Assembly: GCA_964349455.1 (NCBI GenBank)
Contig: CAYGGG010000002.1
Location: forward strand, 1 to 61,034
Reading direction: 5' to 3'
Length of the DNA: 61,034 nt
Source of the DNA: an uncultured Muribaculaceae bacterium
Lineage (GTDB): Bacteria; Bacillota_I; Bacilli_A; RF39; UBA660
Each line of letters begins with the position of its first letter. The first letter of the stretch is position 1. Shown piece by piece: positions 24,603-50,742 of this stretch. The position numbers and the translations under genes were made by a program. A model generated the notes under the pieces. That model saw only the letters and a list, made by a program, of their open reading frames with translations, did not search any database and was not told the origin of the DNA.

Positions 24603-24650
24603 CTTTATTTTTTTTATATTTTATTGTATACTTATTATAGGAGTGGTAAG

Positions 24651-26978: not shown

Positions 26979-26987
26979 GAGGTTTTG

Positions 26988-29900: not shown

Positions 29901-30326
29901 ATTAAATATCGAATTATTCCCCCTGATGATGGTGGACCTACTGAAACAATCGATATTTTGGTTAAATTTAGACCAATTGATCTTGTTGAACCATTCCCTG
30001 GGAATGATGGTTTGGGTAGGATGCCAGGGTGGAATTGGCAAGGTGACCATGTAATTGAGAGTGTGATTGTTAATAATCGTGGTGTTAGTGGAAGTCGGGT
30101 CTATTTTGATGTCGACCCAATGTATACAATTAATTTAAATTTTAGTAATATTTTTGAGATTAGGGGTTATAATAGAGGTAGAGACTATTTTGATTTTAAT
30201 TTAAATTGTCGAACGGGGCTCACTAGCGAAGGAAGACATCGCGAGTGTCAAAGTAGTTTTGTCGATCAATTTGTAACAAGAAATAGTTGTTTGCTTAATT
30301 CATGGGATGGTTGTCATAATTTATAA
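26988..30326 (+). CDS. Giant Cys-rich secreted protein, paralog A (1112 aa), unknown family
   Basis: AGGAGG RBS. N-terminal signal/anchor LVIISIFLIMIFLSPIIG. No LPXTG motif or C-terminal TM. Collinear with 30338-33925. Confidence 0.7.
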   Translation: MKINKKYLVIISIFLIMIFLSPIIGFSWTGPIDDWIRPPGDKRLTGTKYGLNDKSNAIRIYVVKQTGNNVKVVSAVKDFRSSVVSKEGHITHYSVSANGLGTRINGDSRLVSDGNYKKYVETKSSYFDKALPKVFVDGGTQDVKKFIIDLYADEGNCKPNCLSEFLINVLGGMDATTKSDFRNLNNFSSYFIIVEPVHYYWRISGAPDAIAFSSTDGALYYNNFGTALSDVRTRIYNMAPLAIMNVDIHQQLSVLDRVTMPPLKPAIYDPDVCYSACFYTKDEMIGRSGYGIGYFYMNDFVEKIPPDDTPKTCQTMINQFPNATEYWKFVEEYLNKTSERYQGDKFNCCTDFDNYIKSIEKTKPESKIIISYKTDYELYCKSNVTPPTPIPEDPDGKECRYSVAVSCPDCTENQSGIIKDIDDWDCIFASDKVASVPFKNHYNSNLNNRYCKVYCREEMGYVYPKETFTVYAGSHFTMGDFPSDSSTLVPNWGSVAFQGTANCRPSTDRDLKTDKLAGDHDYLNIDHVLFAKDWKELNQKLGDAWDKYQVAVLQDWAKSNAKFDGKTCGLVFDDSYSNKDGCVNEEKMYKCPQGVPVDRGTDPRNTEFKCTYTTDAKEVSGRYECLSGVLEGSLCRHQVDAIYSHYRCLGTSNAKYEKVKTPKYEYAKANIRGNESSGSFSWCTGRNDVTYSWEDDYGSAGYHRRYVIDSQVTSLRTSTELYRNAASTLPSNLITSPTVEDSKKLYDDYYNQLENRLLQIRACQSFEYSYDHLSPKMLVGYKDYKYPEPKEFELDLVVTEQKDTDYLLKGKKVDYSTADIDRFVCATPISPGRTESLLMVGRAFNCPVEKQEYPNNDSFYHTKDRVINYELNKDVYRYVVKHSEKGKFTFDSVSYHQKPSSGNFIDIGYGNFPIHYYQGENYPSTSTVWLRLANSPSESFGFNNRFDKFVFGMYKPAFVDSECMRYECDYNIKYRIIPPDDGGPTETIDILVKFRPIDLVEPFPGNDGLGRMPGWNWQGDHVIESVIVNNRGVSGSRVYFDVDPMYTINLNFSNIFEIRGYNRGRDYFDFNLNCRTGLTSEGRHRECQSSFVDQFVTRNSCLLNSWDGCHNL

Positions 30327-30337
30327 AGGAGGCTTTT

Positions 30338-33300
30338 ATGAAAAAATTTAGCAGAATTATATTAGGAGTTTTTGTTTTAACAATTGGGATATTGTTGTTT
30401 CAAGAAACAATTTTTGCTGGATGGCAGGGCTCAATTGGTGGTACAGGTGGAAATCAAGGAGGAAGTGGGACAACCGCTAATGTTTATATTACAAATAGTG
30501 GTGCACATGCAATGAGAGTGTATATGGTTAAACAAGTCGGCGGCAGTGTAACAGTTGTTTCTAATGTAAAAGATTTTCGAAAACAAGATGGGTGGCAGTA
30601 TAAGACGGTTTTAAATTATTCTACTTCAGGTAACGGCCTTGGGACGAGATTTGGCAGTAATTTGGTAAAAAACAATTCGGGATATAATGCCCACGTTGTT
30701 ACAAAATCTTCTCAGGAGGGAGTTCCGCTTCCCACCTTATATGTAGAGGGGGCAGGACAGGCAGTTCGTAATTTTTTCTTGGCGTTGAATCGTAATCAAA
30801 CTAATTGTAGTCCAAATTGCTTACATAAATTTTTAGTTGAAACACTGGGTGTTAATAGTGAATTGAAAGGTATTTTGGAAAAACAAGGAGATGTTAGTAA
30901 TTATTTTATTGTGGTTGAACCAGTTCATTATTTTTGGAAAAATCCAAGTGGTAATGCAATTGCCTTTTCTTCAACTGATGGTGCTAAATTTTATAAAGAT
31001 TTTGTAAGTGGCGGAATACATAATGTGCAATCGCGAATTTTTAATCATTCCCCGTTGACACTTGTCAATTTAAATTCGAAGCCTTTAAATGCATTATCGG
31101 CAGCTGGGACACCATTAAAACCATGGTGTAGCAATGCAGCTGTTTGTTATAGTAATCGAAGTCAGTATTTTTATACCTCGGCTCAAATGATGGGTAGTTC
31201 TGGATTGGGAATTGGTTATTTATGGGCGAAGGAAACTGATTTGGGTAAGGAATGCGATCCTAAGGATCCAAAAAATCCGTGTGAGGATGATGACGAAGAT
31301 ATTCCTAAAACTTGTGCTTCAATGATGTCAAACATTTCTGATTATAAAGCATATTGGGATTTTGTTAGATGGGGTTTGAATAAAACGGATAAGGATTATA
31401 AGATGAATTGTTGTAGTGATTTTAAAAATTATATTGAAAGGCAAAAAGCAACTAATCCTACTTCTCTAATTTTATCAGCACATCAAGTTGATTATGAGTT
31501 GTATTGTGAAAGTCCGACAACAACAGTCCCGCCACCAACACCAAAAGATCCGCAATGTGCGTATTCGGTTCTGGTTTCATGTCCAGAATGTACTGAGATT
31601 CAATCTGGTGCGATTAAGGATATTGATAATTGGGATTGTATTTTTTTAAGTGATCGTTCGCCAAATGTGCCTGTTCAATTTAGAAATCATTATATTCAAG
31701 CATCGATTGGTGATAATCGTTATTGTAAGGTATATTGTCGTGAAGAAATGGGCTATGTTTTTCCAGAGGAAACATTTACGGTTAAGGCAGGACTTCATTT
31801 TACAATGGGAAGTACTTCTGTTGATACACCATTTGGAATTCCAAACTGGGGGAATGCTGCTTTTCAAGGAACCGCAAATTGTATGCCAGATATAAAGAGA
31901 GATAAGAAAATAGAGCCTTTAGCTGGAATTGATCGAACTAAGACAGGTGATCATGATGATTTACATATTGACCACGTGAAATTTACACATGATTGGAAGG
32001 ATGTTAATATTCGTTTGGGGACGGCTTGGGATAAATGGCAAGTTGGTGTTTTACAAGATTGGACTAAGAATAATGCCCAATATGCCGGACGGGATTCATC
32101 ATGTGGATTGGTTTTTAATGATAGTGAGTCAAGAGCAGCAGGCTGTGTTGATGAAAATAAAATATATTCATGTAGTTATGGGAAACCGAAAGATGGCTCA
32201 TCCAATAATAGTCGAAAAACTATATTTGAATGTCGCCATGTAGTACCCGCTACCGCGCATTATACGTGTTCTTCAGGAACTTTCAATGGGGTCGATTGTG
32301 ATACACAATGCACAAGAATGATTGATTGTTATAATTCTGTCACTAAAAAATGGGAGAAGTGTCCTCAAAATTATAGTTGTTCTGTTGCGGCAACATTTTC
32401 TCATTACACTTGTGATGAACCACAATATGATAAACCATTACCAGGGGATTCTTCTCAATGTTATTATGATTTTACCTCAGATTCAACTAGATGGCAGTGT
32501 AACAGTACAAGCGGTGCATATTATCAAAGAGTGAGAACTCCTTCATATAATTATAATAATCCAAATATACGAGGAAATGAAAGTAGTGGGTCGTATAATT
32601 GGTGTACAATAAGGAGCGATGTTAATTATGATTGGACTAACGATCCGAATACAGCAAGTGGATTTACTCGTCGCTTTGTTTCAAATACTCAGGTGAGTAG
32701 TTTATCGTCTAATACAAATTTATATGATCCCGCTCCAAATACAGCAAGAAGACCGGCAACGAGACCATCTGTTAATTCGTTGCGAAATGCCTATGATGTA
32801 ATTTATCGTGAACGGGAAGGTTATTTGCAACAAATAAGAGCTTGTCAAAATTATGATTATAACTATAATCATTTAAATCCGCAAATGCGAATGGGGTATA
32901 ATGATTTTAAATATCCGTTACCGCCTGATGTTGATTATGCATTAGAATCAAAAATAACCGAAACTTCAGAAATTGATTATCTGGTAAAAGGACAATATGT
33001 CAGTAGTTCATCAGATGTGATTGATCGATTTTCGTGTAATCCACCAACTACACCAGCGACTACTACTAGTTGGCAAACTGTTGGGACGGCTGTTAAATGT
33101 CCAATTACAAAACAAGATTATCCAGATAATGATGCTTTCTTCTATACTAAAGATCGAGTTATTAATTATGAGTTAAATCAAAATATTCATCGTTTTGTTA
33201 TTAAACATAGTGAAAAAGGAAATTTTACTGATGATTCGGTTTCGGTTCACAGAAGACCTGCAACCGGAAATTATATTGACATTGGATATCCAAATTTACC

Positions 33301-33925
33301 GGTTCATTATTTTCAGGGAGACCATTATCCTGATACTAGTCAAGTATGGATTAGATTAGTCGATGTACCAAGCCCTAGTTTAGGTTCAAATAATAGATTT
33401 GACAAGTTTATTTTTGGGCAATATAAACCAGCAACCATTAATGCAAGAGAATGTATGCGTTATGAATGTGACTATAATATTACCTATCGGTTTATTCCGC
33501 CTGATGATGGTAATCCTAATCCGGGAGGTCCTAATCCAGGAGACCCAACAGGGGTTATTGATATATTAGTTAAATTTCGACCAATCGATTTAGGAGATCC
33601 TTTTCCAGGTCATTCAGGGACAGGGCGAACGCCAGGATGGAATTGGAATTCAGACAATGTTATTACGCAAGTTATTAGTAATAATCGAGGGGTAACGGAA
33701 GATAGACTTTATCGCGACCGAAATCCGATGTATACGATTGATTTAAGATTTAATGCAATTTCAGCAATTCGTTCATATAATAGGAATCGTGATTATAATG
33801 ATTTTACGCTTACTTGCCGAACCGGATTAACTGGTAATAGTCGGCATCGTGAATGTCGAAGTACATTTGTAAATCAGTTTGTAAAAAGAGATTCATGTTT
33901 AAGCACTTGGAACGGTTGTCATTGA
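30338..33925 (+). CDS. Giant Cys-rich secreted protein, paralog B (1195 aa), unknown family
   Basis: AGGAGG RBS and signal/anchor IILGVFVLTIGILLF. Blocks shared with paralog A include VEPVHY, AIAFSSTDGA, YCKVYCREEMGYV, FQGTANC, NIRGNESSGS, LQIRACQ, TKDRVINYELN, ECMRYECDYNI and IDILVKFRPIDL. Confidence 0.7.
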   Translation: MKKFSRIILGVFVLTIGILLFQETIFAGWQGSIGGTGGNQGGSGTTANVYITNSGAHAMRVYMVKQVGGSVTVVSNVKDFRKQDGWQYKTVLNYSTSGNGLGTRFGSNLVKNNSGYNAHVVTKSSQEGVPLPTLYVEGAGQAVRNFFLALNRNQTNCSPNCLHKFLVETLGVNSELKGILEKQGDVSNYFIVVEPVHYFWKNPSGNAIAFSSTDGAKFYKDFVSGGIHNVQSRIFNHSPLTLVNLNSKPLNALSAAGTPLKPWCSNAAVCYSNRSQYFYTSAQMMGSSGLGIGYLWAKETDLGKECDPKDPKNPCEDDDEDIPKTCASMMSNISDYKAYWDFVRWGLNKTDKDYKMNCCSDFKNYIERQKATNPTSLILSAHQVDYELYCESPTTTVPPPTPKDPQCAYSVLVSCPECTEIQSGAIKDIDNWDCIFLSDRSPNVPVQFRNHYIQASIGDNRYCKVYCREEMGYVFPEETFTVKAGLHFTMGSTSVDTPFGIPNWGNAAFQGTANCMPDIKRDKKIEPLAGIDRTKTGDHDDLHIDHVKFTHDWKDVNIRLGTAWDKWQVGVLQDWTKNNAQYAGRDSSCGLVFNDSESRAAGCVDENKIYSCSYGKPKDGSSNNSRKTIFECRHVVPATAHYTCSSGTFNGVDCDTQCTRMIDCYNSVTKKWEKCPQNYSCSVAATFSHYTCDEPQYDKPLPGDSSQCYYDFTSDSTRWQCNSTSGAYYQRVRTPSYNYNNPNIRGNESSGSYNWCTIRSDVNYDWTNDPNTASGFTRRFVSNTQVSSLSSNTNLYDPAPNTARRPATRPSVNSLRNAYDVIYREREGYLQQIRACQNYDYNYNHLNPQMRMGYNDFKYPLPPDVDYALESKITETSEIDYLVKGQYVSSSSDVIDRFSCNPPTTPATTTSWQTVGTAVKCPITKQDYPDNDAFFYTKDRVINYELNQNIHRFVIKHSEKGNFTDDSVSVHRRPATGNYIDIGYPNLPVHYFQGDHYPDTSQVWIRLVDVPSPSLGSNNRFDKFIFGQYKPATINARECMRYECDYNITYRFIPPDDGNPNPGGPNPGDPTGVIDILVKFRPIDLGDPFPGHSGTGRTPGWNWNSDNVITQVISNNRGVTEDRLYRDRNPMYTIDLRFNAISAIRSYNRNRDYNDFTLTCRTGLTGNSRHRECRSTFVNQFVKRDSCLSTWNGCH

Positions 33926-33945: not shown

Positions 33946-34359
33946 ATGAAAGAGTCGTTATGGGGGACATTTGTAATTATGTTTGGAATTACTGCTGTGT
34001 TTTTTGTCTTATTGTTTCAAAGAATTGTTACAACGAGTGAACATAATTATCATATATTGAAGGAGGCTACTGAGGGTGCGATGTACGATGCACTTGATTA
34101 TGCTGAATATCGTGCTTATGGAACAGTCCGAATCGATCGTGAAAAATTTGTTGAAAATTTTGTTCGCCGATTTGCTGAGAGCGCGTCATTAACTGATCGA
34201 TATTTTATTGAAATATATGATGTGTTCGAGGAACCACCAAAAGTAAGCATTCAAGTTTCCAGTGTTGAATCCGGAAACCCTGGAACGAATGAACGCTTTG
34301 AATTTAATATTGTGAATCGAATTGATGCAATATTAGAAACGATGTATGTTAATCCATAG
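33946..34359 (+). CDS. TadE/pseudopilin-like protein (N-terminal MKESLWG leader plus hydrophobic helix)
   Basis: MKESLWG-TFVIMFGITAVFFVLLF followed by a ~110-aa soluble domain. It shares the leader pattern with 38100, 38304 and 38774. Confidence 0.45.
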   Translation: MKESLWGTFVIMFGITAVFFVLLFQRIVTTSEHNYHILKEATEGAMYDALDYAEYRAYGTVRIDREKFVENFVRRFAESASLTDRYFIEIYDVFEEPPKVSIQVSSVESGNPGTNERFEFNIVNRIDAILETMYVNP

Positions 34360-34377
34360 TAAGAAAGGAATGAGAAA

Positions 34378-35247
34378 ATGAATGGTATAGTAAATGGTTT
34401 ACAAGGTTTTTTAAAAAACAAGAATATTGTTACAATTTTGGGCGTAATTGCAATTTTGGGTATTTTGTATTTTACTTATAATAATCAAATTGAGAAGCAG
34501 GTTCGTCCATATCGTAATATTCCGGTTGCAAGAGAGGCAATCCAGCCCGGGACAATGATCACTGATGAAATGATTGATTATGTTGATATATCACCAATTG
34601 TCTTTAATCATGGCCGTGTTGCTCGATTTTCAAACGAAGTTGTTGGGAAATATGCTGATTATAATACGGTAATTCCAGCAGGAAGCTTGTTTTATCTAGA
34701 TGTTTTAATTAGTGAAGAACAATTGCCTGATTCGGTATTTACCAAAGTTAAGGATGGCGATGTTGTAACAAGATTTGCGGTTACAACGGAAACAACATAT
34801 GGAAATTCAATTTTTCCGGGAAATAGAATTGATATTTATATGAAAGTAATTGTGCCTAGTACAAGAACAATAATGGTTGGAAAATTATTAGAAAATATTA
34901 CAATTATTGCCGTAAAAGATAATAGCGGTAAAGATGTATTTGTTAGTAGAGAAGATGAGTCACAATCAGCAATGTTAATTTTTGGATTAGACCCAATTTT
35001 ACATAATCTTTTGTTGAAGGCGAGTTATATGCGAGATTTCGAAGTGGAATTAATTCCGGTACCACATGGTGGAACAGTTGAGAATACTGGTGGAACGCAA
35101 ATAAAATCAGAAGCATTGAAATTGTTGATTGAAGCAAACTCTGAACCAAATGAAGAGTTATTTAGTGATCAAGATATTGTGGTTGACGATTTAATAATTG
35201 AAGATGAAAATATTGATTTAGAGGATTTAATAGACGGAGTTGAGTAA
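34378..35247 (+). CDS. CpaB/RcpC-like SAF-domain pilus assembly protein
   Basis: An N-terminal TM (IVTILGVIAILGILYF) is followed by the SAF-like IPVAREAIQPGTMITDEMI...VVGKYA...IPAGSLF. The C-terminal tail is acidic. Confidence 0.55.
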   Translation: MNGIVNGLQGFLKNKNIVTILGVIAILGILYFTYNNQIEKQVRPYRNIPVAREAIQPGTMITDEMIDYVDISPIVFNHGRVARFSNEVVGKYADYNTVIPAGSLFYLDVLISEEQLPDSVFTKVKDGDVVTRFAVTTETTYGNSIFPGNRIDIYMKVIVPSTRTIMVGKLLENITIIAVKDNSGKDVFVSREDESQSAMLIFGLDPILHNLLLKASYMRDFEVELIPVPHGGTVENTGGTQIKSEALKLLIEANSEPNEELFSDQDIVVDDLIIEDENIDLEDLIDGVE

Positions 35248-35249
35248 AA

Positions 35250-36347
35250 ATGAATGACAACATGTTTGCCCAAATTGATTTTGGCGCGTTAAAACCTTAT
35301 TTGGAAAGCGATGACATAACGGATATATCATATAGTAATGGTGGTCAGATATGGCTTAAAACACTTTCTAAAGGGATTTTTCGAGTTGAAAATCCAAGTA
35401 TTGATGATACTTTTATTGAAAAAGTCGCTTTCCAGTGTTCAAACGTGATGGGAAAGACCTTCAATATGGCTCATCCTTTTCTTGATGCAGAAGGAGCAGA
35501 GTTACGTTTAAACTTTGTTCATCGCTCAATTGCAACAAATGGTGTAGCGGTTGTTTTTAGAAAGACACCAGCTAAAATTAGATTGCAAAAAGATAAAATA
35601 TTAGAAGAACAATATATTACAATTGACATTCTTGATTTTTTAATAAAGTGTGTTGAAGGACATTGTAATATTATTGTTTGTGGTGAAACTGGTTCTGGTA
35701 AAACCGAACTTGTCAAGTATTTAGCGTCGCATACAAAAGAAAACGAAAAGATAATTACGATTGAGGATACTTTAGAATTACATTTAGATCGAATTTTTCC
35801 AATGCGCGATATTGTCGCAATGAAAACAAATAATATTGCTTCGTATACTGATGTGTTGGTTACTTGTATGCGCCAAAATCCAAGATGGATTTTATTATCA
35901 GAGGTTCGTAGTGCGGAAGCGGTAATGGCGGTTCGAAATTCAATTTCATCGGGTCATTATATTTTATCAACAATTCATGCCGAAAAAGCAGCTTCTATTC
36001 CAAACCGAATGTATAGTTTGCTTGAATCTAATCAAGATATTGAACAATTTTTAAAATCAATATATCGTTATATTCAATTAGGGGTTTATGTTCGTGGTTT
36101 TCAAGACAAAGAAACCAAAAAGTTTAGACGTGAGGTTGCTGAAGTAACCGAGTTTTATGTTACTGATGATAATGAAGCTAAATATAATATAATTTATAAA
36201 AAAATGGCAACCGGTAATGTTGTGCGAAGAAAACCAAGTAAGTATTTATTTGAATATCTTGAAATACAAGGTGTTAGTTTGGAAGAAGATGCGATTAAAC
36301 CATCGGGTGAAACCGAAAAAGAGGAAAAAGTTGAAGTTTTAATATAA
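35250..36347 (+). CDS. TadA/CpaF/VirB11-superfamily secretion ATPase (T2SSE)
   Basis: Walker A VCGETGSGKTE (~35681-35708), IITIEDTLEL, Walker B/Arg RQNPRWILLSEVR and His box ILSTIHA. Confidence 0.85.
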   Translation: MNDNMFAQIDFGALKPYLESDDITDISYSNGGQIWLKTLSKGIFRVENPSIDDTFIEKVAFQCSNVMGKTFNMAHPFLDAEGAELRLNFVHRSIATNGVAVVFRKTPAKIRLQKDKILEEQYITIDILDFLIKCVEGHCNIIVCGETGSGKTELVKYLASHTKENEKIITIEDTLELHLDRIFPMRDIVAMKTNNIASYTDVLVTCMRQNPRWILLSEVRSAEAVMAVRNSISSGHYILSTIHAEKAASIPNRMYSLLESNQDIEQFLKSIYRYIQLGVYVRGFQDKETKKFRREVAEVTEFYVTDDNEAKYNIIYKKMATGNVVRRKPSKYLFEYLEIQGVSLEEDAIKPSGETEKEEKVEVLI

Positions 36348-36359
36348 AGGAGGCGAAAT

Positions 36360-37265
36360 ATGGGAACATTAGCAGCATTTTTATTGATTAGTGTTTTATT
36401 TGTTTTTTTGGTAGCCTATCGAAAAAACACTGGCGATAGTGTTTACAAATATATTTCAGGACAGGTTGTTGGTGTGTATGAAAAATATGCCCCCTATTCT
36501 TTTCAATCAGTTAGAGAAAAAGTAAAAGGATTGGGTCAGGAATATTCATCAAGGCAGTATGCAATGCAGTTTTCTATTTTTGCAATTGCCGCGTTTGCAA
36601 TATCATATTTATATTTTTACAGCGTAATTACATCTTTAATTTATGCGTTGTTAGCAATTATGGTAATACCATATTTAACTTATTTAAGATGTAAGCGTAT
36701 TTATAGTGAGTTTTTGTTTGAACAAATTCAAGTATATACGACTAACGTTATTATGGAATTTGCCACAACTCAAGCGTTTGTTAAAGCACTAGAAGGGGTC
36801 TATGAATCAGGTGTTTTAGAAGACCCAGTTAAAGGTGATGTAAAGATAATGATTGACATGGCCTATGAAAGCGGAACGATTGAGGGAGCGCTTGATTATA
36901 TGAATAGTAGATATGATTATTTTGTTGTAAAAAATATGCATCAATTATTTTTACAAATTACAAATGAAGGTTCGAAAGATTCTGGGGATGCTTTAGAAAA
37001 TATGTCGTTAGATATTGATATGTTAGTCGAGAATGTTTATCGTGACCGAATGGATCGTTCGAGTTTTCACAAAAAGTTTTTACAATTTGGAATTATTTTA
37101 TATTTAATGGTAATGATGGTTCAATTTTTGTTAGGAATTGAGTCATACATTAAATTGTTAAATAGTGGCTGGGTGCAGCTGTTGATTCATGGTGTGGTAG
37201 CCATTAATACTTATTTTTTGTTGAATGGTGAAAAATATTATAATGAGAATGTAGGTGCAGAATAA
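36360..37265 (+). CDS. TadB-like inner-membrane platform protein (T2SSF-like)
   Basis: Topology is TM, cytoplasmic helical domain (...VKALEGVYESG...IEGALDYMNSRY...DSGDALENMSLDID...), then C-terminal TMs. It lies directly after the ATPase. Confidence 0.5.
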   Translation: MGTLAAFLLISVLFVFLVAYRKNTGDSVYKYISGQVVGVYEKYAPYSFQSVREKVKGLGQEYSSRQYAMQFSIFAIAAFAISYLYFYSVITSLIYALLAIMVIPYLTYLRCKRIYSEFLFEQIQVYTTNVIMEFATTQAFVKALEGVYESGVLEDPVKGDVKIMIDMAYESGTIEGALDYMNSRYDYFVVKNMHQLFLQITNEGSKDSGDALENMSLDIDMLVENVYRDRMDRSSFHKKFLQFGIILYLMVMMVQFLLGIESYIKLLNSGWVQLLIHGVVAINTYFLLNGEKYYNENVGAE

Positions 37266-38047
37266 TGGAATTTGTTATTATAGCAATAATTTTTGTTTAT
37301 ATTTTAGAAGTAAATAATCGTGTTAGTACAAGGAAATTTGTTAAAGAGGCAGAACCATATTTCCGGTTTATGATGGAAGATGATTATAAATTTTTACTGA
37401 CGGTTCGTTATGGGAATGATGTTATTGTTGATGACTTGTACGGAACAAGAGTTCGTAATGGGATAATAACAACCATTGCGCTGGCTTTTATTTTTGTATC
37501 GAGATTAGATTTATTGTATATTGCAATTTGTTTAGTTGCAGGATTCGTGATATTTAAACAACCTTATATGAAATTACAAAAATACTATCAAAAAAATCTT
37601 CATTCTATCAATTTAATGCTTCCTTATTATTTAAAAAGTTTAGAAATATTGATCCAGCATTATACGGTTCCAGTGGCATTATCAAAATCAATTTTAACAG
37701 CACCTGATATTTTTAAATCTGGTTTAGAGAAATTGGTTCATAAAATTGAAGCTGGTGATTCAACGGTTGACCCATATATGGATTTTGCTAAAGAATATCC
37801 TGTTCGTGATTCAATGCGAATGATGCGACTTTTATATCGTTTGGGGCTTGGTTCTCAAGAGAATAAGCATCAACAATTAATGATGTTTTCGCGAACTGTT
37901 TCGACATTACAAAATAAATCACGAGAGACTAAGTATAAAGATCGTTTGGAAATGATGGAAAAGAAAACAATGTTGATGTTGGGGTGTACCGGTGGTGGCA
38001 TTATGATGATAATGTTAATGGCAATTATGATGATGATGGAGTTATAG
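37265..38047 (+). CDS. TadC-like inner-membrane platform protein (T2SSF-like)
   Basis: ATAATG overlap with the preceding gene. Same TM/helical/TM architecture (LPYYLKSLEILIQHYTVPVALSKSI...). Confidence 0.5.
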   Translation: MEFVIIAIIFVYILEVNNRVSTRKFVKEAEPYFRFMMEDDYKFLLTVRYGNDVIVDDLYGTRVRNGIITTIALAFIFVSRLDLLYIAICLVAGFVIFKQPYMKLQKYYQKNLHSINLMLPYYLKSLEILIQHYTVPVALSKSILTAPDIFKSGLEKLVHKIEAGDSTVDPYMDFAKEYPVRDSMRMMRLLYRLGLGSQENKHQQLMMFSRTVSTLQNKSRETKYKDRLEMMEKKTMLMLGCTGGGIMMIMLMAIMMMMEL

Positions 38048-38048
38048 A

Positions 38049-38077
38049 TTGAATTTTAAATTTGCCTATGTTATAAT
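38049..38077 (+). promoter_or_regulatory. Near-consensus sigma-A promoter with an extended -10, in front of the pilin ORF
   Basis: TTGAAT (38049-38054), a 17-nt spacer, TGt then TATAAT (38072-38077). Confidence 0.65.
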
Positions 38078-38099
38078 TCTATAGAAAGGTGGTGAGATA

Positions 38100-38270
38100 G
38101 TGAAAGAAGCAGCAGGAGAAGCGAACTTAACAGTTGTAGCTATTATTTTAATTGGGGTGATTGCAGCAGTTGTTACACCGCTAATTACAAGAATGATGAA
38201 TACAACGAGAGAAAGAGGCGAATGCATGGATACTGGTGGTGTCTGGGTAAATGGCCGATGTCAGCGATAA
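38100..38270 (+). CDS. Flp/type IVc-like major pilin candidate, 56 aa (absent from the supplied ORF track)
   Basis: GTG start 7 nt after AGGTGG. It translates to MKEAAGEANLTVVAIILIGVIAAVVTPLITRMMNTTRERGECMDTGGVWVNGRCQR: a short polar leader, a ~22-aa hydrophobic helix and a C-terminal Cys-x11-Cys loop. It holds the flp position between tadC-like and tadE/F-like genes. Confidence 0.55.
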   Translation: MKEAAGEANLTVVAIILIGVIAAVVTPLITRMMNTTRERGECMDTGGVWVNGRCQR

Positions 38271-38303
38271 GATAACAATTAAAGAATAAATAGGAGGTGT
38301 TTG

Positions 38304-38771
38304 ATGCGCGAAGGTATTGGTAGTATTCAAATGTACAATATCATTATCTTGTTTTTCTTGATCGTGGTAGCATTTTTATTTGCAACAATTAGCTATCAAC
38401 GAGCGTTTAAAGTAAACACTTTAATTACAAGTAGTATTGAAAGATATGAAGGGTATAATGGACTTGCAATTCCAGTTATTGAACGAGATTTAAATACAAT
38501 TGCTTATCAGAGATTACGAGGGGGCGTGACACCAAATTGTCCAGCAAAAGATCCTTTGGTATTAGTGTCAGGTTCTAATTTATCTCATAAGTATTGTGTT
38601 TATGAAGGGGCTTTAGAAACAGTTACTTTTTCGGACGGCTTACAGGTTTCTTTTAGACAATATACAATTGTAACGTACGTTACATTTGACCTGCCCTTAA
38701 TAACTGATTTAATTGAAATTCCTGTCATTTCAAAAACAAATCGAATTGTCTGTTTTGAGGGCGGCTGTTAA
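38304..38771 (+). CDS. TadE/TadF-like pseudopilin
   Basis: AGGAGGTG RBS. MREGIGS-IQMYNIIILFFLIVVAFLF leader and helix, with conserved Cys residues. Confidence 0.45.
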   Translation: MREGIGSIQMYNIIILFFLIVVAFLFATISYQRAFKVNTLITSSIERYEGYNGLAIPVIERDLNTIAYQRLRGGVTPNCPAKDPLVLVSGSNLSHKYCVYEGALETVTFSDGLQVSFRQYTIVTYVTFDLPLITDLIEIPVISKTNRIVCFEGGC

Positions 38772-38773
38772 TT

Positions 38774-39229
38774 ATGAAAGAGTCAATTGGCAACACGATG
38801 GTTTTTACTTGGGTTATCATTTTTCTTTTTTTAATAATGCTTTTAATTATGGGGTCTTTAATGTACTCAAGAGCATTTAAAAATAGAAATGAAATAATAA
38901 CAATTATTGAAAAACATCGTGGATTTAATCTTCAGGCTAGAAATGAAATTGATGAGTTTTTAAGAATGGTTGGATATCGTCAAGCAAAAGATTTTCATAA
39001 TCGAGATGTTAATAATAGTTGTCAACCACCAAGTGGTTGGTCTAACGAGCCAGTACAAAGTGTATATTTGTATTGTGTTTATCGAAATAATAACGCCGAT
39101 TTATATCAGGTTGTTATTTTCTTGTATTTGGATATCCCGATTGTTGGTGAATTTATTTCTTTTCCAGTTCGTGGTGAAACAAGGGTATTTGTTAATTGGC
39201 GAAGCCAAAGTCTTGAGGTGATTAGATGA
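38774..39229 (+). CDS. TadE/TadF-like pseudopilin (paralog of the previous gene)
   Basis: MKESIGN-TMVFTWVIIFLFLIMLLIMG. It shares ...YSRAFK.N..I...IE...G... and YCVY with 38304-38771. Confidence 0.45.
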   Translation: MKESIGNTMVFTWVIIFLFLIMLLIMGSLMYSRAFKNRNEIITIIEKHRGFNLQARNEIDEFLRMVGYRQAKDFHNRDVNNSCQPPSGWSNEPVQSVYLYCVYRNNNADLYQVVIFLYLDIPIVGEFISFPVRGETRVFVNWRSQSLEVIR

Positions 39230-40239
39230 ATGTTATTATAACTAATAAAAATCAAAGTAGTATTCAAACTTTAAATATGGAAATAATTAAAGAAATGAAC
39301 GGTGAATTTTCAGCTGATGAAATTGTTGCTGCGTTTAAGAACTTTTTTTATCAAAGAATGATTTTAGATATTACGGCGTTAAAAGATTTTAAAGAATTAA
39401 GTAATTTGCAAAAATTATCAATTTCATTAGATATGGATAAGTTAATTTTATTTTTAGGAAATGTTGAAATTGGTTCTTCAAATGAATTTTTATCGAGTTT
39501 AATATCAATGGGAATATATAATTTTACCAAAAATGTTGATGGAATTATGTATTTGTATAATAATCCAAATTCATATCGCGATGTGGCACATTTTCATAAT
39601 TTGGATATTTTTAAAGAAGAAGTCCCAACAGCAACTCATTCAACAAAAACTTTAAAAGAATATGGGACACAAATTATTGGTATTGAAAATGTTACGGTTA
39701 ACTCCGGTGCAACGACATTAACATATTTGATGAAAAGGCAATTAGAAAGTAATTATTCAGTGATTGCGATTGAAATGAATAAAAGAGATTTCAGCTATTT
39801 CAATAATGAAAAAGAGATGTATTCATCGACTGATGATCATTTTTTAGGGTTATTAAGTAAGCATGCTGATAAAGATGTTATTTTAATTGATTTGAACGGA
39901 AGTAAGGTTGCAAAAGAACGATGTAATGATGTAATTTACTTGATTGAGCCATCAATTATTAAATTAAATAAGTTAATGGTTTTATATCGTTCGAAATTGC
40001 AAGATATTAGTAAGAAAAAAATTATTTTAAATCAAAGTATGTTAACTTCGAAAGATGTTTTAGATTTTGAATATGAGGCAAGATCAAAGGTGTTTTTTAA
40101 TATGCCACCACTTGACGAGCGGCAAAAAAACATTTTGGTTTTGAATATGTTTTTAAAAAAATTAGGATTTGATCGTCAATATACCGAAAATAGTGATAAA
40201 AAGAGTAAAATCCTTGGTATTTTTAATATTAATAATTGA
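39226..40239 (+). CDS. TadZ/CpaE-like protein (receiver-like N-domain plus degenerate ParA/MinD-like domain)
   Basis: ATGA overlap with the upstream gene. IIGIENVTVNSGATTLTYLM sits where the deviant Walker A should be, with no conserved Lys. DVILIDLNGS is a Walker B-like strand. Confidence 0.35.
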   Translation: MNVIITNKNQSSIQTLNMEIIKEMNGEFSADEIVAAFKNFFYQRMILDITALKDFKELSNLQKLSISLDMDKLILFLGNVEIGSSNEFLSSLISMGIYNFTKNVDGIMYLYNNPNSYRDVAHFHNLDIFKEEVPTATHSTKTLKEYGTQIIGIENVTVNSGATTLTYLMKRQLESNYSVIAIEMNKRDFSYFNNEKEMYSSTDDHFLGLLSKHADKDVILIDLNGSKVAKERCNDVIYLIEPSIIKLNKLMVLYRSKLQDISKKKIILNQSMLTSKDVLDFEYEARSKVFFNMPPLDERQKNILVLNMFLKKLGFDRQYTENSDKKSKILGIFNINN

Positions 40240-40282: not shown

Positions 40283-40603
40283 ATGGAATTATACGTTTTA
40301 GCCACGGGACCATGCATGGGCATGCCAACTGTTTTGATTGATTTGTTAGGAATAGTTATTCAGGTGATAAAAATTGTTATTCCGATTGTTTTAGTTCTTT
40401 TCGGAATGCTTGATTTAGGGAAGGCTGTTTTTGAACAAAAAGAAGAAGATATAACAAAAGCTCAAAAAATGTTTGTTAAAAGACTAGTAGCAGCTATTTT
40501 GGTATTTTTAGTAGTTGTAATTGTTCAATTTGTAATCGGCGTTATTGCGAATGCAACAGGCGATTCAGAAGTGATTACATGCTTTGATCATATTTTTAAT
40601 TAA
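40283..40603 (+). CDS. Small two-TM hairpin protein, VirB2/TrbC-like pilin-like candidate
   Basis: AGGAGG RBS. Two long hydrophobic helices are separated by the charged loop LGKAVFEQKEEDITKAQKMFVKR. Confidence 0.4.
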   Translation: MELYVLATGPCMGMPTVLIDLLGIVIQVIKIVIPIVLVLFGMLDLGKAVFEQKEEDITKAQKMFVKRLVAAILVFLVVVIVQFVIGVIANATGDSEVITCFDHIFN

Positions 40604-40626
40604 GAAACTTTGGTTTCTTTTTTTTT
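40602..40626 (+). terminator. Rho-independent terminator ending operon 1
   Basis: AAGAAAC/GTTTCTT 7-bp stem, a 4-nt loop and a T run. Confidence 0.7.
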
Positions 40627-40667
40627 GTAATAATATATTATTTTCTATTTATTATTTAGAAATACTA

Positions 40668-40676
40668 TGATATAAT
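40668..40676 (+). promoter_or_regulatory. Extended -10 promoter (TGaTATAAT) for the T4SS operon
   Basis: TG at 40668-40669 and TATAAT at 40671-40676, 24 nt upstream of ATG 40700. The -35 is weak (TTTATT). Confidence 0.5.
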
Positions 40677-40699
40677 AAATATATGTTAGAGGTGAATAT

Positions 40700-41818
40700 A
40701 TGAAATTAAAACGTCATTTTTTAGTTTTTTGTTTAATTGTAATTTCTTTTTTTATTTTTAATCCAATTGAGGTAAATGCTGAGATAAATGGCTGTGTTTA
40801 TGAAGTTAAGGGTAGCGGGAGTGAAAAATTAATTATTAATGCAAGTAAATCCGTTTTTAAACTATCTGCTGACGGAAAACTCGAGGAAAAATCTTTAGGG
40901 ACGGTTAATATTGCCGGTACCGAAAAGGCAGATGGGAATTTTGCAGCACCATTTAAAAGTTGTCCAGGTAACTTATATAAATATGAATTAGGAGCTAGTG
41001 GTGGCGCAAGAGGCGATGCAAAATCGGTGTATTCTGTTTCATTATGTGAAATAGAAACAGTAAATGATATTAATGATGATTTTAGAAAAAGATGTGATTT
41101 TCTTTTTGATTATATATACATTAAACCTGTGATAGGTGGTACAGAAAAAGAGGAAATGACACTTCGCGAATCAATTGAAGAATATGGTGAAATGGCAGGA
41201 GCACTTTTTAAATATGATTCTCTAAAAAAACAATATCAAATAAAAGATTTGTATAAGGCAATTTCAATTACTGAAGCACAAGAAGATGCTGCTAAGGAAA
41301 ATATGGAGGCAGCGGCGACAGCTTTTGCAAGTTGTGTGAAAAAGAACCATCCTTATGTGAGTAATTGTAATGAAAATGAGTATGATGAGTATGTAAGTTG
41401 TGTTATGGCAGCGGTTGAAGCAAAAGGGGATGAATTTAAATGTAGTGCTGAAAAAAATCAATACGAGGAAGCTTCAAAAGAACTTACTACTGCTCGAGAA
41501 TTGAAATTAATTGAGTGGAATTTAAAGGAATTATCATGCGAGGAAATATTGGGGACAGATTTAATTGAGTTTTTAAAGAGGCTTTTCTTTTATATAATGA
41601 TTATTGGGATTGGTATTACTGTTGTAATGACAATGTTAGATTATGGAAAAGCAATTGCTAGTTCCGATGAAGAAATTTATAAAAAAGCGAATAAGAAAAT
41701 GGGGCGAAGAATAATAATATTGATTATTCTAATACTATTGCCAGTGTTAATTGAATATATTCTTATAATATTTGGTGGGGCAATAGGAATTACAAATGCT
41801 CATCCTTTCTGCGAGTAG
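40700..41818 (+). CDS. Secreted protein with a signal peptide and a C-terminal two-TM VirB2-like hairpin module
   Basis: MKLKRHFLVFCLIVISFFIFNPIEVNA signal sequence. The C-terminal ...VMTMLDYGKAIASSDEEIYKKANKKMGRRIIILIILILL... parallels the 106-aa protein. Confidence 0.5.
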   Translation: MKLKRHFLVFCLIVISFFIFNPIEVNAEINGCVYEVKGSGSEKLIINASKSVFKLSADGKLEEKSLGTVNIAGTEKADGNFAAPFKSCPGNLYKYELGASGGARGDAKSVYSVSLCEIETVNDINDDFRKRCDFLFDYIYIKPVIGGTEKEEMTLRESIEEYGEMAGALFKYDSLKKQYQIKDLYKAISITEAQEDAAKENMEAAATAFASCVKKNHPYVSNCNENEYDEYVSCVMAAVEAKGDEFKCSAEKNQYEEASKELTTARELKLIEWNLKELSCEEILGTDLIEFLKRLFFYIMIIGIGITVVMTMLDYGKAIASSDEEIYKKANKKMGRRIIILIILILLPVLIEYILIIFGGAIGITNAHPFCE

Positions 41819-41826
41819 GTGAAGAA

Positions 41827-43845: not shown

Positions 43846-43863
43846 AAAAAGGGGTGATTTAAA

Positions 43864-44181
43864 TTGAATGAAGGATTTTTAATTCCGGCAAATTCAAAAA
43901 AATCGATATTAATTTTTGGTTTATTTAAGACATTTGACTTGATCTTGTTTAGCATAGGATTAGGGTTAACATTTTTGTTGTTGATAACCGTTCCGATGCA
44001 AGATCTAACATGGTCGGTAATTGCAATAGCACCAGGAATGATTTGTGGTTTTCTGGTATTGCCATTACCTAATTACTATAATGTTCGAACATTTATTATG
44101 AGTGCATGGCGCTTTTATACAATAAGGCAGAAATTTATATGGAAAGGTTGGTGTGTAATTAATGAGCAAGGCAGAGAGTAG
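43864..44181 (+). CDS. VirB3/PrgI-like small two-TM protein
   Basis: TTG start after AGGGGTGA. It is 105 aa with two TM helices and overlaps the start of the VirB4 N-domain ORF. Confidence 0.45.
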   Translation: MNEGFLIPANSKKSILIFGLFKTFDLILFSIGLGLTFLLLITVPMQDLTWSVIAIAPGMICGFLVLPLPNYYNVRTFIMSAWRFYTIRQKFIWKGWCVINEQGRE

Positions 44182-46494: not shown

Positions 46495-46512
46495 TAGGCA
46501 GGCGGTGATAAA

Positions 46513-49302: not shown

Positions 49303-49314
49303 GGACGGTGAAAT

Positions 49315-50016: not shown

Positions 50017-50028
50017 AGGAATGATATA

Positions 50029-50733: not shown

Positions 50734-50742
50734 GAGGGTTCT

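What the first reader, a model, noticed from the sequence alone, without database searches (positions are those of the whole stretch)
33946..39229. Four proteins share an M-[KR]-E-x-x-(x)-G leader followed by a hydrophobic helix, yet no prepilin peptidase is visible
- The N-termini read directly from the sequence are MKESLWG|TFVIMFGITAVFFVLLF (33946), MKEAAGE|ANLTVVAIILIGVIAAVV (38100), MREGIGS|IQMYNIIILFFLIVVAFLF (38304) and MKESIGN|TMVFTWVIIFLFLIMLLIMG (38774).
- A common short charged leader ending at or near a Gly, followed by a TM-length hydrophobic stretch, is the logic of class III (prepilin) signal peptides processed by TadV/PilD-type aspartic peptidases.
- No polytopic protein with the two-Asp A24 signature is recognisable in the island or elsewhere in the window.
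- Three explanations are possible. The peptidase may be encoded elsewhere, the subunits may be used unprocessed, or another island membrane protein may do the job.
Basis: partly seen in the sequence, partly recalled or inferred. Interest (0 to 1): 0.6.

Follow-up and report, generated by a model that had tools for sequence, protein, structure and literature searches.

The report
Pilin-like subunits with trimmed, Glu5-less leader
Four small membrane-anchored proteins of a pilus-plus-secretion gene cluster in a tiny-genome gut bacterium share a strictly conserved six- to seven-residue start that looks like a pilin leader, and the enzyme that could trim it does exist, but on another contig of the genome.

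Summary
All four ORFs start as written, each behind a Shine-Dalgarno-like purine-rich stretch. In the whole 0.8-Mb genome, M-[KR]-E-x(2,3)-G followed by a hydrophobic stretch occurs at 5 of 14,410 candidate starts, and 4 of those are these genes. The motif is kept in orthologues from 79 related loci.

The genes sit in a Tad-like module: a CpaB-like protein, a VirB11/TadA-like ATPase and two polytopic proteins. This module runs straight into a Gram-positive-type T4SS. AlphaFold models give the pilin "lollipop" shape.

The "missing" peptidase is found. One PilD-type A24 gene lies next to pilC on contig 41. A24 occurs in 297 of 301 genomes of the order, and in 242 of 244 that carry the island marker DUF5411.

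Whether it cuts these proteins is not shown. They lack Glu5. Their leader is fixed in length and differs from the host's 29 canonical prepilins. The Gly is not invariant in two of the four families.

Best reading (about 0.5): they are type IV filament subunits processed in trans. This scan has met the same motif before on other genomes. I class it as a new variant of a known kind, of moderate interest.

The parts
33946..34359 (+). DUF5411 protein (137 aa), MKESLWG + TM helix. Read as a minor-pilin-like subunit, genetically coupled to the giant secreted proteins upstream.
   Evidence: PF17424 E 1.3e-50. AF2 pLDDT 85, helix 2-48 plus a 3-stranded sheet. Pilins are 7 of the top 50 VIA rows, Z 4.5-6.0, not above background. 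The motif is conserved.
34378..35247 (+). CpaB/RcpC-like protein (289 aa).
   Evidence: TIGR03177 E 9.6e-7; PF16976 and SAF at E about 1e-3. All are below the curated cut-offs.
35250..36347 (+). T2SSE-family secretion ATPase (365 aa), VirB11/TadA-like.
   Evidence: PF00437 E 3.5e-27. Closest NCBIfam models are VirB11, TadA-conjugal, TrbB, ComGA and FlaI, all below cut-off. 26-34% identity to the 'CpaF/VirB11 family' genes of the 25 listed of 650 matching Gram-positive plasmids.
36360..37265 (+). Polytopic membrane protein (301 aa), TadB-like platform candidate.
   Evidence: No Pfam hit. ESM Atlas neighbours are auto-named TadB; one cluster carries PF00482 in 25% of members. hhalign to the genome's PilC aligns the GspF-type motif but is not significant. 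80% mean column identity over 38 orthologues.
37265..38047 (+). Polytopic membrane protein (260 aa), TadC-like platform candidate.
   Evidence: 9 of 40 orthologues give sub-threshold T2SSF hits, E>=0.057. hhalign to PilC is not significant.
38100..38270 (+). 56-aa major-pilin candidate: MKEAAG-EANLTVVAIILIGVIAAVVTPL followed by a short variable Cys-rich head.
   Evidence: The N-terminal 28 residues are nearly invariant and the C-terminus is variable. Tandem duplicates occur in 4 loci. No hit to Flp, N_methyl or TadE. 2 of 58 members hit archaeal Pilin_N weakly.
38304..38771 (+). Minor-pilin-like protein mp1 (155 aa), MREGIGS + TM helix.
   Evidence: AF2 pLDDT 92.7, helix 2-47 plus a beta-sheet. 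14 of the top 50 VIA rows are pilins or pseudopilins, Z<=4.7. ESM Atlas structural neighbours are TadE/TadG and N_methyl clusters, TM 0.54-0.58.
38774..39229 (+). Minor-pilin-like protein mp2 (151 aa), MKESIGN + TM helix; paralogue of mp1.
   Evidence: Aligns with mp1 in A2, with two conserved Cys positions (one invariant, one in at least 90% of rows). Motif conservation.
39226..40239 (+). 337-aa cytoplasmic protein at the position of TadZ/CpaE; family unassigned.
   Evidence: No Pfam or PDB match. 1 of 36 orthologues hits ParA-type domains at E 0.017.
26985..33925 (+). Two paralogous giant secreted Cys-rich proteins (1113 and 1195 aa) directly upstream of DUF5411; adhesin candidates.
   Evidence: Sec-type N-termini and no Pfam hit. 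In G032 each of two DUF5411 copies follows such a gene.
40283..52980 (+). Gram-positive-type T4SS block. It holds small 2-TM proteins, a TrbL/VirB6-like protein, a VirB3-like protein, a split VirB4, an M23+SLT wall hydrolase, two lipoprotein-like proteins and the VirD4 coupling protein.
   Evidence: VirB4_plasma E 1.9e-105; T4SS-DNA_transf E 3.8e-50; Peptidase_M23 E 2.7e-26. The same order of genes is seen in G032 and, as far as VirB4 (the end of the fetched stretch), in G068.

Best explanation
The four proteins are the filament subunits of a diverged Tad-like (type IVc-like) machine that is built into a chromosomal Gram-positive-type T4SS cluster. There is one small major pilin (38100-38270) and three minor, probably tip-forming, pilins (33946, 38304, 38774).

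Their shared M-[KR]-E-x-x-(x)-G start is a minimal class III signal peptide. It is inserted N-in. It is most likely cut after the Gly, on the cytoplasmic face, by the genome's only A24 prepilin peptidase. That enzyme is a PilD-type protein encoded next to pilC on contig 41, and it also serves the host's 29 canonical prepilins.

Cleavage of the major pilin would expose an invariant Glu at +1. None of the four has Glu5.

- **Shown:** the motif, its conservation, the gene context, the pilin-like models, and the presence of the peptidase in trans.
- **Inferred:** filament formation, N-in topology, cleavage, and which enzyme does it.
For: - **Motif.** It is specific to these four genes in the genome and conserved across 79 loci. 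It is also kept in a diverged sub-lineage in which the ATPase is about 72% identical to the window's.
- **Context.** A CpaB-like protein, a T2SSE ATPase and two single-domain platform-like proteins surround the genes. The order matches TadA-TadB-TadC-pilin-pseudopilins as tabulated in PMC10191384 (passages).
- **Major pilin.** The 56-aa protein has the pattern expected of a major pilin: an invariant hydrophobic N-terminus, a variable Cys-rich head and tandem duplicates.
- **Fold.** AF2 models at pLDDT 85 and 93 show a 46-47-residue N-terminal helix packed on a beta-sheet. Structural neighbours include TadE/TadG, N_methyl, GspI/EpsI and PilX.
- **Fit to the definition.** The leader ends in Gly or Ala in 57/58, 57/58, 50/58 and 72/81 orthologues. 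[quoted passage not shown] Glu5 is "always dispensable for processing" (PMC4471445).
- **Peptidase.** A PilD homologue with the Zn-finger Cys residues and GGGD is present. A24 is found in 43 of 45 island-bearing genomes. It is found in 242 of 244 DUF5411-positive genomes of the order (cross-read by handle).
Against: - No Glu5 in any of the four. There is no Pfam hit to N_methyl, Flp or TadE at any threshold tried.
- The leader differs from the host's canonical prepilins. Those are K/R-rich, have K at -2 and vary in length from about 4 to 12 residues. The island leader is net-neutral (K+E), has a hydrophobic or small residue at -2, and has an invariant length. All 147 DUF5411 cluster representatives counted start at Met1. 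Such constraint is unusual for a peptide that is thrown away.
- The Gly is not invariant. In DUF5411, G7 is 61/81 in the loci and 113/147 in the representatives, with L, M, I, T and W also seen. G14 is better kept (142/147). In mp2, G6 is 39/58 with N in 5. One sub-lineage has MKWSF[AT][SA] in DUF5411.
- Basic residues follow the hydrophobic stretch directly (e.g. YQRAFK), which weakens the positive-inside argument.
- A24 presence does not discriminate. It is present in 55 of 57 genomes without DUF5411 too.
- Fold matches do not rise above background: Z<=6.0 against a best unrelated Z of 6.9. Foldseek found nothing at E<=0.001.
Confidence: 0.5

Rival explanations
1. These are leaderless or "pre-trimmed" pilins. 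They are filament subunits of the same machine but are not cut. The fixed M-K-E N-terminus stays on the mature protein, and Glu3 (plus Glu7 in the major subunit) takes over the charge-neutralising or docking role of Glu5. No prepilin peptidase is then needed.
For: - The distance from Met1 to the hydrophobic helix never varies in 58-81 orthologues per family, nor in 147 DUF5411 cluster representatives.
- K2, E3 and [SA]4 are as conserved as the helix itself.
- The Gly is replaceable by L, M, I, N or T in some DUF5411 and mp2 orthologues.
- G14 counted from Met1 is the best-kept Gly of DUF5411 (142/147). As I recall, position 14 is the usual position of the helix-breaking Gly in mature type IVa pilins; no call checked this.
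- The leader is unlike the PilD substrates of the same genome.
- No island or related locus carries a peptidase of its own, and most of the genomes searched have a single A24 match.
Against: - All studied type IV filament subunits need leader removal before assembly (PMC10191384 and PMC4471445, passages).
- Pulling K2/E3 through the membrane is costly.
- Small residues (G, A or S) still hold the position in 58/58, 58/58, 53/58 and 77/81 orthologues, as expected of a cleavage site.
- No A24-free genome with the island could be established. G068 lacks A24 but also lacks PilB, PilT and PilC, while keeping 16 canonical prepilin genes. That points to an assembly gap.
Confidence: 0.28
2. These are not pilins. 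They are ordinary bitopic membrane proteins of the T4SS channel or wall-spanning scaffold, and the shared start is a membrane-insertion or assembly tag. The VirB11-like ATPase and its two polytopic partners would belong to the secretion channel and not to a filament motor.
For: - The ATPase scores best against VirB11 (TIGR02788 E 1.6e-30).
- The platform identity of the two polytopic proteins is only weakly supported.
- There is no significant sequence or Foldseek match to any pilin family.
- In the pLS20 family the equivalent genes 36-41 are listed as "Unknown". The paper states that Gram-positive elements form no conjugative pili (PMC8557374, passages).
Against: - A 56-aa protein with an invariant helix and a hypervariable Cys-rich head, sometimes duplicated in tandem, is the typical picture of an exposed polymer subunit.
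- Four paralogous or analogous proteins share one N-terminal signal next to a T2SSE ATPase and a CpaB-like protein, which is the type IV filament layout.
- The models have the lollipop shape, and TadE/TadG and pseudopilin clusters are among the neighbours.
- Many DUF5411 homologues carry long C-terminal modules, like modular pilins.
Confidence: 0.15
3. The proteins are processed by an unrecognised, non-A24 peptidase encoded in the island, for example one of the two very conserved polytopic proteins.
For: - The leader is distinct from the PilD substrates of the host and is extremely conserved, as expected for a dedicated enzyme.
- The two polytopic proteins have 75-80% mean column identity and many invariant Asp and Glu residues.
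Against: - Both polytopic proteins have the layout of single-domain platform proteins (TM, soluble helical domain, TM) and weak TadB/T2SSF leads.
- No protease family is hit at E<=1.
- No precedent is known to me (from recall, no call).
Confidence: 0.05

Closest known systems
Tad/Flp (type IVc) pilus systems: Flp pilin, TadE/TadF pseudopilins, TadA, TadB/TadC, RcpC/CpaB, TadZ, TadV
   Same: - Gene order: ATPase, two single-domain platform-like proteins, a small pilin of about 50 aa, then two pseudopilin-sized proteins.
- A CpaB-like protein is present.
- The pilins share a short N-terminal signal ending in Gly.
- The peptidase need not lie in the locus. From recall, tadV of Bifidobacterium breve lies apart from its tad locus; I did not check this.
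   Different: - No match to the Flp, TadE or T2SSF models above cut-off.
- No Glu5-Tyr6.
- The leader is only 6-7 residues and of fixed length.
- The only A24 enzyme in the genome is a PilD type with the Zn-finger N-domain, not a TadV type.
- The TadZ position is held by an unassignable protein.
- The module is fused to a VirB4/VirD4 T4SS.
Genes 36-41 of the conjugation operon of pLS20-family Bacillus plasmids (Val-Calvo et al. 2021, PMC8557374; example pBatNRS213, OK210094.1)
   Same: - Same order: adhesin, a 126-aa N-terminal-TM protein, a VirB11-like ATPase (32% identical over 81% of the query), two polytopic proteins, a 120-aa N-terminal-TM protein (DUF4320), then tiny TM proteins. VirD4, VirB6 and VirB4 genes follow.
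- Gene 36 aligns to the DUF5411 profile from residue 1 (hhalign E 2.4e-4, probability 43%).
- 4 of 89 mp1/mp2 orthologues hit DUF4320 weakly.
   Different: - The plasmid versions start MKGSIM..., MLEGSVMAIG... and MLDQNADRMYW..., so the M-[KR]-E-x-x-G motif is not kept as such.
- No CpaB-like gene and no gene at the TadZ position.
- Profile matches of the other four proteins are weak or not significant.
- The plasmids are mobile and have a relaxase. The island here has none that Pfam recognises.
DUF5411/CpaF operons predicted by gene-embedding in gut Clostridia (Miller et al. 2022, PMC9523054)
   Same: An uncharacterised 8-9-gene operon with a CpaF-type ATPase, a PilC/GspF-like protein, a DUF5411 protein and a large surface protein (passages).
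   Different: - It is described for Roseburia, Ruminococcus and Eubacterium.
- The passages I read mention no leader motif, no prepilin peptidase and no T4SS link.
- I did not open its Supplementary Table 9 or Supplementary Fig. 7, which may list further genes.
Archaeal type IV pilins (Epd/EppA type) and their class III signals
   Same: - Glu5 is often absent.
- The M. maripaludis major pilin begins with Gln, which is converted to pyroglutamate (PMC4471445, passage). The major subunit here would begin with an invariant Glu after cleavage.
- 2 of 58 orthologues of the 56-aa protein hit archaeal Pilin_N at E 0.002, and 1 hits Arch_flagellin.
   Different: - The hits are far below the cut-offs.
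- There is no K/R at -2.
- The only peptidase is bacterial PilD-like.

Membership tests
Class III (prepilin) signal peptide | Short hydrophilic or neutral leader (6-26 aa) at the very N-terminus | tested here: met
   Leaders are 6 aa in three proteins and 7 aa in DUF5411. Definition taken from PMC4471445.
Class III (prepilin) signal peptide | Leader ends in Gly (or Ala) | tested here: met
   All four window proteins have Gly. G+A in orthologues: 57/58, 57/58, 50/58 and 72/81. Exceptions (N, S, L, M, I) exist in mp2 and DUF5411.
Class III (prepilin) signal peptide | About 20-25 mainly hydrophobic residues follow, forming a long alpha-helix | tested here: met
   17-25 uncharged hydrophobic residues follow the Gly. 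AF2 gives continuous helices 2-48 and 2-47.
Class III (prepilin) signal peptide | Glu at position +5 (frequent, not obligatory) | tested here: not met
   None of the four has Glu at +5. The 56-aa protein has an invariant Glu at +1 (58/58).
Class III (prepilin) signal peptide | Cleaved by an A24 prepilin peptidase | not testable with these tools
   A PilD-type gene exists in trans. Cleavage needs an experiment.
Pfam pilin families N_methyl (PF07963), Flp_Fap, TadE (PF07811) | Profile match above the gathering score | tested here: not met
   No hit for the four proteins at E<=0.01. None among the 89 mp1/mp2 or 58 small-pilin orthologues at E<=1. The same genome gives 29 N_methyl matches elsewhere.
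Type IV pilin fold (lollipop) | Long N-terminal helix whose C-terminal half packs on an antiparallel beta-sheet; structural match to solved pilins | tested here: inconclusive
   The shape is present. Pilins are 7 of 50 rows at Z<=6.0 for DUF5411 and 14 of 50 rows at Z<=4.7 for mp1, not above unrelated rows. Foldseek found nothing at E<=0.001. ESM Atlas neighbours from TadE and N_methyl clusters have TM 0.54-0.58.
Tad (type IVc) machinery | TadA/CpaF-type ATPase | tested here: inconclusive
   PF00437 is met at E 3.5e-27. Subfamily models (VirB11, TadA-conjugal, TrbB, FlaI) are all below cut-off and close to each other.
Tad (type IVc) machinery | Two single-domain platform proteins TadB and TadC (T2SSF) | tested here: inconclusive
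   0 of 38 and 9 of 40 orthologues give sub-threshold PF00482 hits. ESM Atlas neighbours are auto-named TadB. hhalign to PilC is not significant.
Tad (type IVc) machinery | Dedicated TadV peptidase without methylase domain | tested here: not met
   Only one A24 match in the genome at E<=10. It has the Cys4 N-domain of the PilD type and lies next to pilC.
DUF5411 (PF17424) | Profile match above the gathering score | tested here: met
   E 1.3e-50, 171 bits against a cut-off of 30, covering profile positions 1-133 of 134.
Integrative conjugative element | Relaxase and integrase/transposase with the T4SS; variable insertion site | tested here: not met
   Pfam recognises no relaxase or integrase among the 53 window ORFs. 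The same right flank (RmuC, RNase R, SmpB) is seen in G032. DUF5411 is present in 244 of 301 genomes and 106 of 127 genera of the order. Divergent relaxases cannot be excluded.

The most novel reading that the evidence does not exclude
The subunits are never cut. They would be a class of "pre-trimmed" type IV filament subunits in which a fixed Met-Lys-Glu N-terminus replaces both the leader and Glu5. That would make the pilus module of Gram-positive conjugation-type machines independent of any prepilin peptidase. This applies to the chromosomal version in small-genome gut Bacilli and possibly to genes 36-41 of pLS20-like plasmids. It would mean that Gram-positive T4SSs, textbook "pilus-less" systems, build a Tad-derived filament by a route not yet described.
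Probability: 0.25. Interest if true: 0.8.

Novelty: new variant of a known kind. Interest (0 to 1): 0.5.

Why it matters
Gram-positive conjugation systems are described as lacking pili (PMC8557374, passage). Here a Tad-like module with a full set of pilin-like subunits is welded to such a system. It is nearly core in a whole order of small-genome gut bacteria (244 of 301 genomes).

The shared, unusually rigid leader gives a simple handle for testing whether these subunits are processed and assembled. It also tests whether one housekeeping PilD can serve two very different substrate sets. The related block in pLS20-family plasmids is genetically tractable, so the question can be put to experiment directly.

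The peptidase gene lies elsewhere in the genome.

Tried and rejected
- **Complex prediction of the PilD homologue (A5) with the 56-aa protein (A6).** The tool was declared unavailable. Nothing was folded, so the step is left open.
- **A natural experiment.** I looked for island-bearing genomes without A24.
  - G068 (95% complete) has an intact island with the motif. It has no A24, PilB/PilT or PilC match. It still has 16 canonical N_methyl prepilin genes, so an assembly gap is the likelier cause. Inconclusive.
  - G141 lacks PilC as well as A24.
  - In G005, pilC lies near the end of the stretch fetched (L109 and L111 both stop at base 24618 of that contig), so pilD may lie beyond a contig end; the contig length was not checked.
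  - In G001 (0.6 Mb, completeness unknown) no A24 gene follows pilC.
- **A24 co-occurrence.** It is not informative, because A24 is present in 55 of 57 DUF5411-negative genomes too.
- **Foldseek against PDB for both models.** No match at E<=0.001.
- **Profile searches of the two polytopic proteins against PDB.** Nothing relevant.
- **hhalign comparisons.** TM1 against TM2, and each against PilC, were not significant.
- **TadZ/CpaE identity of the 337-aa protein.** Not supported.
- **tblastn of DUF5411 against PLSDB plasmids.** No match.
- **A more distant context with its own peptidase.** The loci of a diverged DUF5411 representative were again from Bacilli and Tenericutes MAGs with the same layout. 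I did not reach the Clostridial operons of Miller et al.
- **Literature searches.**
  - "DUF5411" gave 1 paper.
  - "DUF4320" gave 0 papers.
  - The Tad/VirB4/Firmicutes, Tad-like/monoderm and pLS20/VirB11/pilin searches listed no paper whose title or abstract start describes this leader motif or these proteins as pilins; apart from the passages cited, I did not open the listed papers.
  - PMC12306168 was not relevant.

Full report
**1. What is there**

The window is contig 2 of a genome of 806,659 bases in 59 contigs, 95% complete and about 30% G+C. Related loci come from MAGs labelled Mollicutes, Tenericutes or Bacilli.

From about 24.6 kb to 53.0 kb, all genes lie on the + strand and form one block. 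In order, the block holds:
- a 543-aa polytopic protein and a 226-aa protein;
- two paralogous giant secreted proteins (26985-30326 and 30338-33925), with no Pfam hit;
- a DUF5411 protein (33946-34359; PF17424, E 1.3e-50);
- a CpaB/RcpC-like protein (34378-35247; sub-threshold);
- a T2SSE ATPase (35250-36347);
- two polytopic proteins (36360-37265 and 37265-38047);
- a 56-aa protein (38100-38270);
- two paralogous 150-aa proteins (38304-38771 and 38774-39229);
- a 337-aa cytoplasmic protein;
- a Gram-positive-type T4SS. Its parts are TrbL/VirB6-like, VirB3-like, a split VirB4 (NF045975, E 1.9e-105), an M23+SLT hydrolase and VirD4.

Pfam recognises no relaxase or integrase among the 53 ORFs scanned.

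**2. The observation**

Each start codon sits behind a Shine-Dalgarno-like purine-rich stretch. In the 56-aa protein the Gly is residue 6 and Glu7 follows it.

Genome-wide, 5 of 14,410 candidate starts fit M-[KR]-E-x(2,3)-G plus an uncharged hydrophobic 18-mer. Four of the five are these genes.

I fetched 79 related loci with the DUF5411 protein and identified orthologues by blastp of all ORFs. Orthologues were found in:
- 79 loci for DUF5411;
- 54 loci for the 56-aa protein;
- 59 loci for each 150-aa protein.

Many loci end at contig borders, which limits these counts.

Position counts:

| Family | n | Position 2 | Position 3 | Gly position | Other |
|---|---|---|---|---|---|
| 56-aa protein | 58 | K 58 | E 57 | G6 57 | A4 58, E7 58, T11 58 |
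| mp1 | 58 | R/K 57 | E 45 (Q 11) | G6 55 (A 2, S 1) | |
| mp2 | 58 | R/K 55 | E 48 (D 6) | G6 39 (A 11, N 5, S 3) | |
| DUF5411 | 81 | K/R 67 | E 67 | G7 61 (A 11, S 5, L 2, M 1, I 1) | S4 78, W6 80, G14 80 |

No orthologue has an insertion or deletion in the leader.

A profile search of 1.84 billion cluster representatives found 723 DUF5411 proteins at E<=0.001. I dropped three of the best 150 because their match does not begin at residue 1. In the remaining 147 the counts are M1 147, K2 127, E3 107, W6 128, G7 113 and G14 142.

A diverged sub-lineage (ATPase about 72% identical) keeps MKEATGE... in the small protein and MR[DE]A.GG in a single 150-aa protein. Its DUF5411 starts MKWSF[AT][SA].

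**3. The peptidase**

A six-frame search of the whole genome with PF01478 at E<=10 gives one match (E 2.5e-16), on contig 41.
- The ORF is 260 aa. It has the CxxC...CxxC N-domain of PilD-type enzymes.
- It lies directly downstream of a PilC-type gene and upstream of nusB.
- In an alignment with 10 orthologues, four Asp residues are invariant (D117, D125, D170 and D182, the last in a GGGD motif).
- PilB- and PilT-type ATPases lie on contigs 30 and 17.
- The genome has 29 N_methyl matches. Most begin MKKG|FTLIELLAVIV..., and many belong to proteins of 500-2170 aa.

So a prepilin peptidase is available in trans, with many canonical substrates.

A24 was found in 43 of the 45 island-bearing genomes searched. 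These were 45 of the 79 loci; the other 34 were not searched. It was also found in 297 of 301 genomes sampled from the order.

I cross-read the handles. 242 of 244 DUF5411-positive genomes and 55 of 57 DUF5411-negative genomes have A24. Presence is therefore compatible with processing in trans but does not discriminate.

Most of these genomes have a single A24 match, so the island does not bring a second, dedicated peptidase anywhere in the genome.

**4. Are they pilins?**

Evidence in favour:
- The operon layout matches the T4cP parts list (PMC10191384, passages).
- The 56-aa protein has an almost invariant N-terminal 28 residues, a variable Cys-rich C-terminus (consensus CC..GG.W..G.C) and tandem duplicates in 4 loci.
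- The 150-aa proteins have two conserved Cys positions, one invariant and one kept in at least 90% of rows. This would fit an extracytoplasmic C-terminal domain and hence N-in topology, but that is inference.
- AlphaFold2 models from 67- and 89-sequence alignments have pLDDT 85.1 and 92.7. Each has one helix (2-48 or 2-47) followed by a beta-sheet.
- ESM Atlas structural neighbours of mp1 include clusters carrying TadE (TM 0.54), Tad (TM 0.55) and N_methyl (TM 0.58 by query).
- Many DUF5411 homologues are the N-terminal 132 residues of proteins of 200-1664 aa, like modular pilins. In G032 each of two DUF5411 copies follows a large secreted-protein gene.

Evidence against or neutral:
- Foldseek finds nothing at E<=0.001.
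- The exhaustive aligner lists 7 pilin entries among the top 50 for DUF5411 (Z 4.5-6.0; best unrelated row 6.9). It lists 14 among the top 50 for mp1 (Z<=4.7; best row 5.0). Neither set rises above background.
- No Pfam pilin family is hit.
- The platform identity of the two polytopic proteins rests on weak leads.

**5. Processed or not?**

By the current definition, a class III signal has a leader ending in Gly or Ala, followed by 20-25 hydrophobic residues, with Glu5 "often, but not always" present (PMC10191384). Glu5 is "always dispensable for processing", while the last Gly is "absolutely critical" (PMC4471445). By this definition the four proteins qualify, and a PilD enzyme could cut them.

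Four facts keep the question open:
- the invariant leader length and sequence;
- the neutral charge of the leader;
- its dissimilarity to the host's own prepilin leaders;
- the replaceable Gly in DUF5411 and mp2.

If the major subunit is cut, it would begin with an invariant Glu. The M. maripaludis major pilin begins with Gln converted to pyroglutamate (PMC4471445). A similar neutralisation here is speculation.

I recall that Flp prepilins often carry acidic residues just before the Gly. I did not verify this in any call.

**6. Wider setting**

DUF5411 is found in 244 of 301 genomes and 106 of 127 genera of the order.

In the closed chromosome G032 the same gene string runs from the 543-aa membrane protein to VirD4. 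It is followed by RmuC, RNase R and SmpB, as in the window. VirB4 is split in the same way there and in G068.

The block therefore looks like a fixed chromosomal machine and not a recently mobile element. This resembles what was reported for Patescibacteria T4SS clusters that lack a relaxase (PMC12102498, passages).

Notes from earlier in this scan pointed to the pLS20 family, and I tested that lead.
- The ATPase has homologues on 650 Gram-positive plasmids; the 25 listed are 26-34% identical.
- In pBatNRS213 the block adhesin, gene 36, VirB11-like ATPase, two polytopic proteins, DUF4320, tiny TM proteins is syntenic with the island.
- Gene 36 aligns to the DUF5411 profile (E 2.4e-4). The other comparisons are weak.
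- The exact motif is not kept.
- Val-Calvo et al. list these genes as "Unknown" and state that Gram-positive elements form no conjugative pili (PMC8557374, passages).
- Miller et al. predicted DUF5411/CpaF operons in Clostridia (PMC9523054, passages). I did not open their supplements.

**7. Verdict**

Cleavage itself is untested, and the leaderless alternative remains live.

This scan has already met the same motif on other genomes (e1-1212461, e1-2887353).
- the peptidase locus and its distribution;
- the genome-wide specificity of the motif;
- family-wide motif statistics;
- a failed natural experiment (G068).

Noticed in passing
G000 contigs C3, C4, C5, C7-C11, C13, C21, C24, C26, C28, C35, C38, C40, C54 and others (not in the window): A 0.8-Mb genome carries 29 N_methyl (canonical prepilin) matches. 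Most share an almost identical start, MKKG|FTLIELLAVIVILAIILLIAMPIVLNVI. Many belong to giant proteins of 500-2170 aa, so this is a large family of pilin-fused surface proteins.
   Followed up: partly
window 44162-44710 and 44710-46494: VirB4 is encoded as two ORFs (182 + 594 aa) with an ATGA stop/start overlap. The same split is present in G032 and G068, so it is a conserved arrangement and not a sequencing error.
   Followed up: partly
window 40283-40603; also the C-terminus of 40700-41818: A 106-aa protein has two TM helices around a charged loop. The resemblance to VirB2 is in topology only, and there is no Pfam hit. It is amplified to about six tandem paralogues in G032 and two to three in L105-L107. 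The 372-aa neighbour ends in the same domain.
   Followed up: no
window 24624-52980 and flanks: The whole pilus+T4SS block has no relaxase or integrase that Pfam recognises. It keeps the same right flank (RmuC, RNase R, SmpB) in the closed chromosome G032. Its marker DUF5411 is present in 244 of 301 genomes of the order. It looks like a fixed, near-core machine.
   Followed up: partly
proteins P0122-P0270 (cluster representatives): In many representatives the DUF5411 domain is the N-terminal 132 aa or so of proteins of 200-1664 aa. One 5436-aa protein (P0121) matches profile positions 50-113 in 35 stretches, so part of the domain also occurs as a repeat.
   Followed up: no
window 26985-30326 and 30338-33925: Two paralogous Cys-rich secreted proteins of 1113 and 1195 aa have no Pfam or NCBIfam match. 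They lie directly upstream of DUF5411.
   Followed up: no
G068:C6 (L113) and genome G068: A 95%-complete genome has an intact island and the conserved motif. It has no match to A24, PilB/PilT or PilC, yet it has 16 canonical prepilin genes. This is probably an assembly gap, but it is worth re-checking in a closed genome of that genus.
   Followed up: partly
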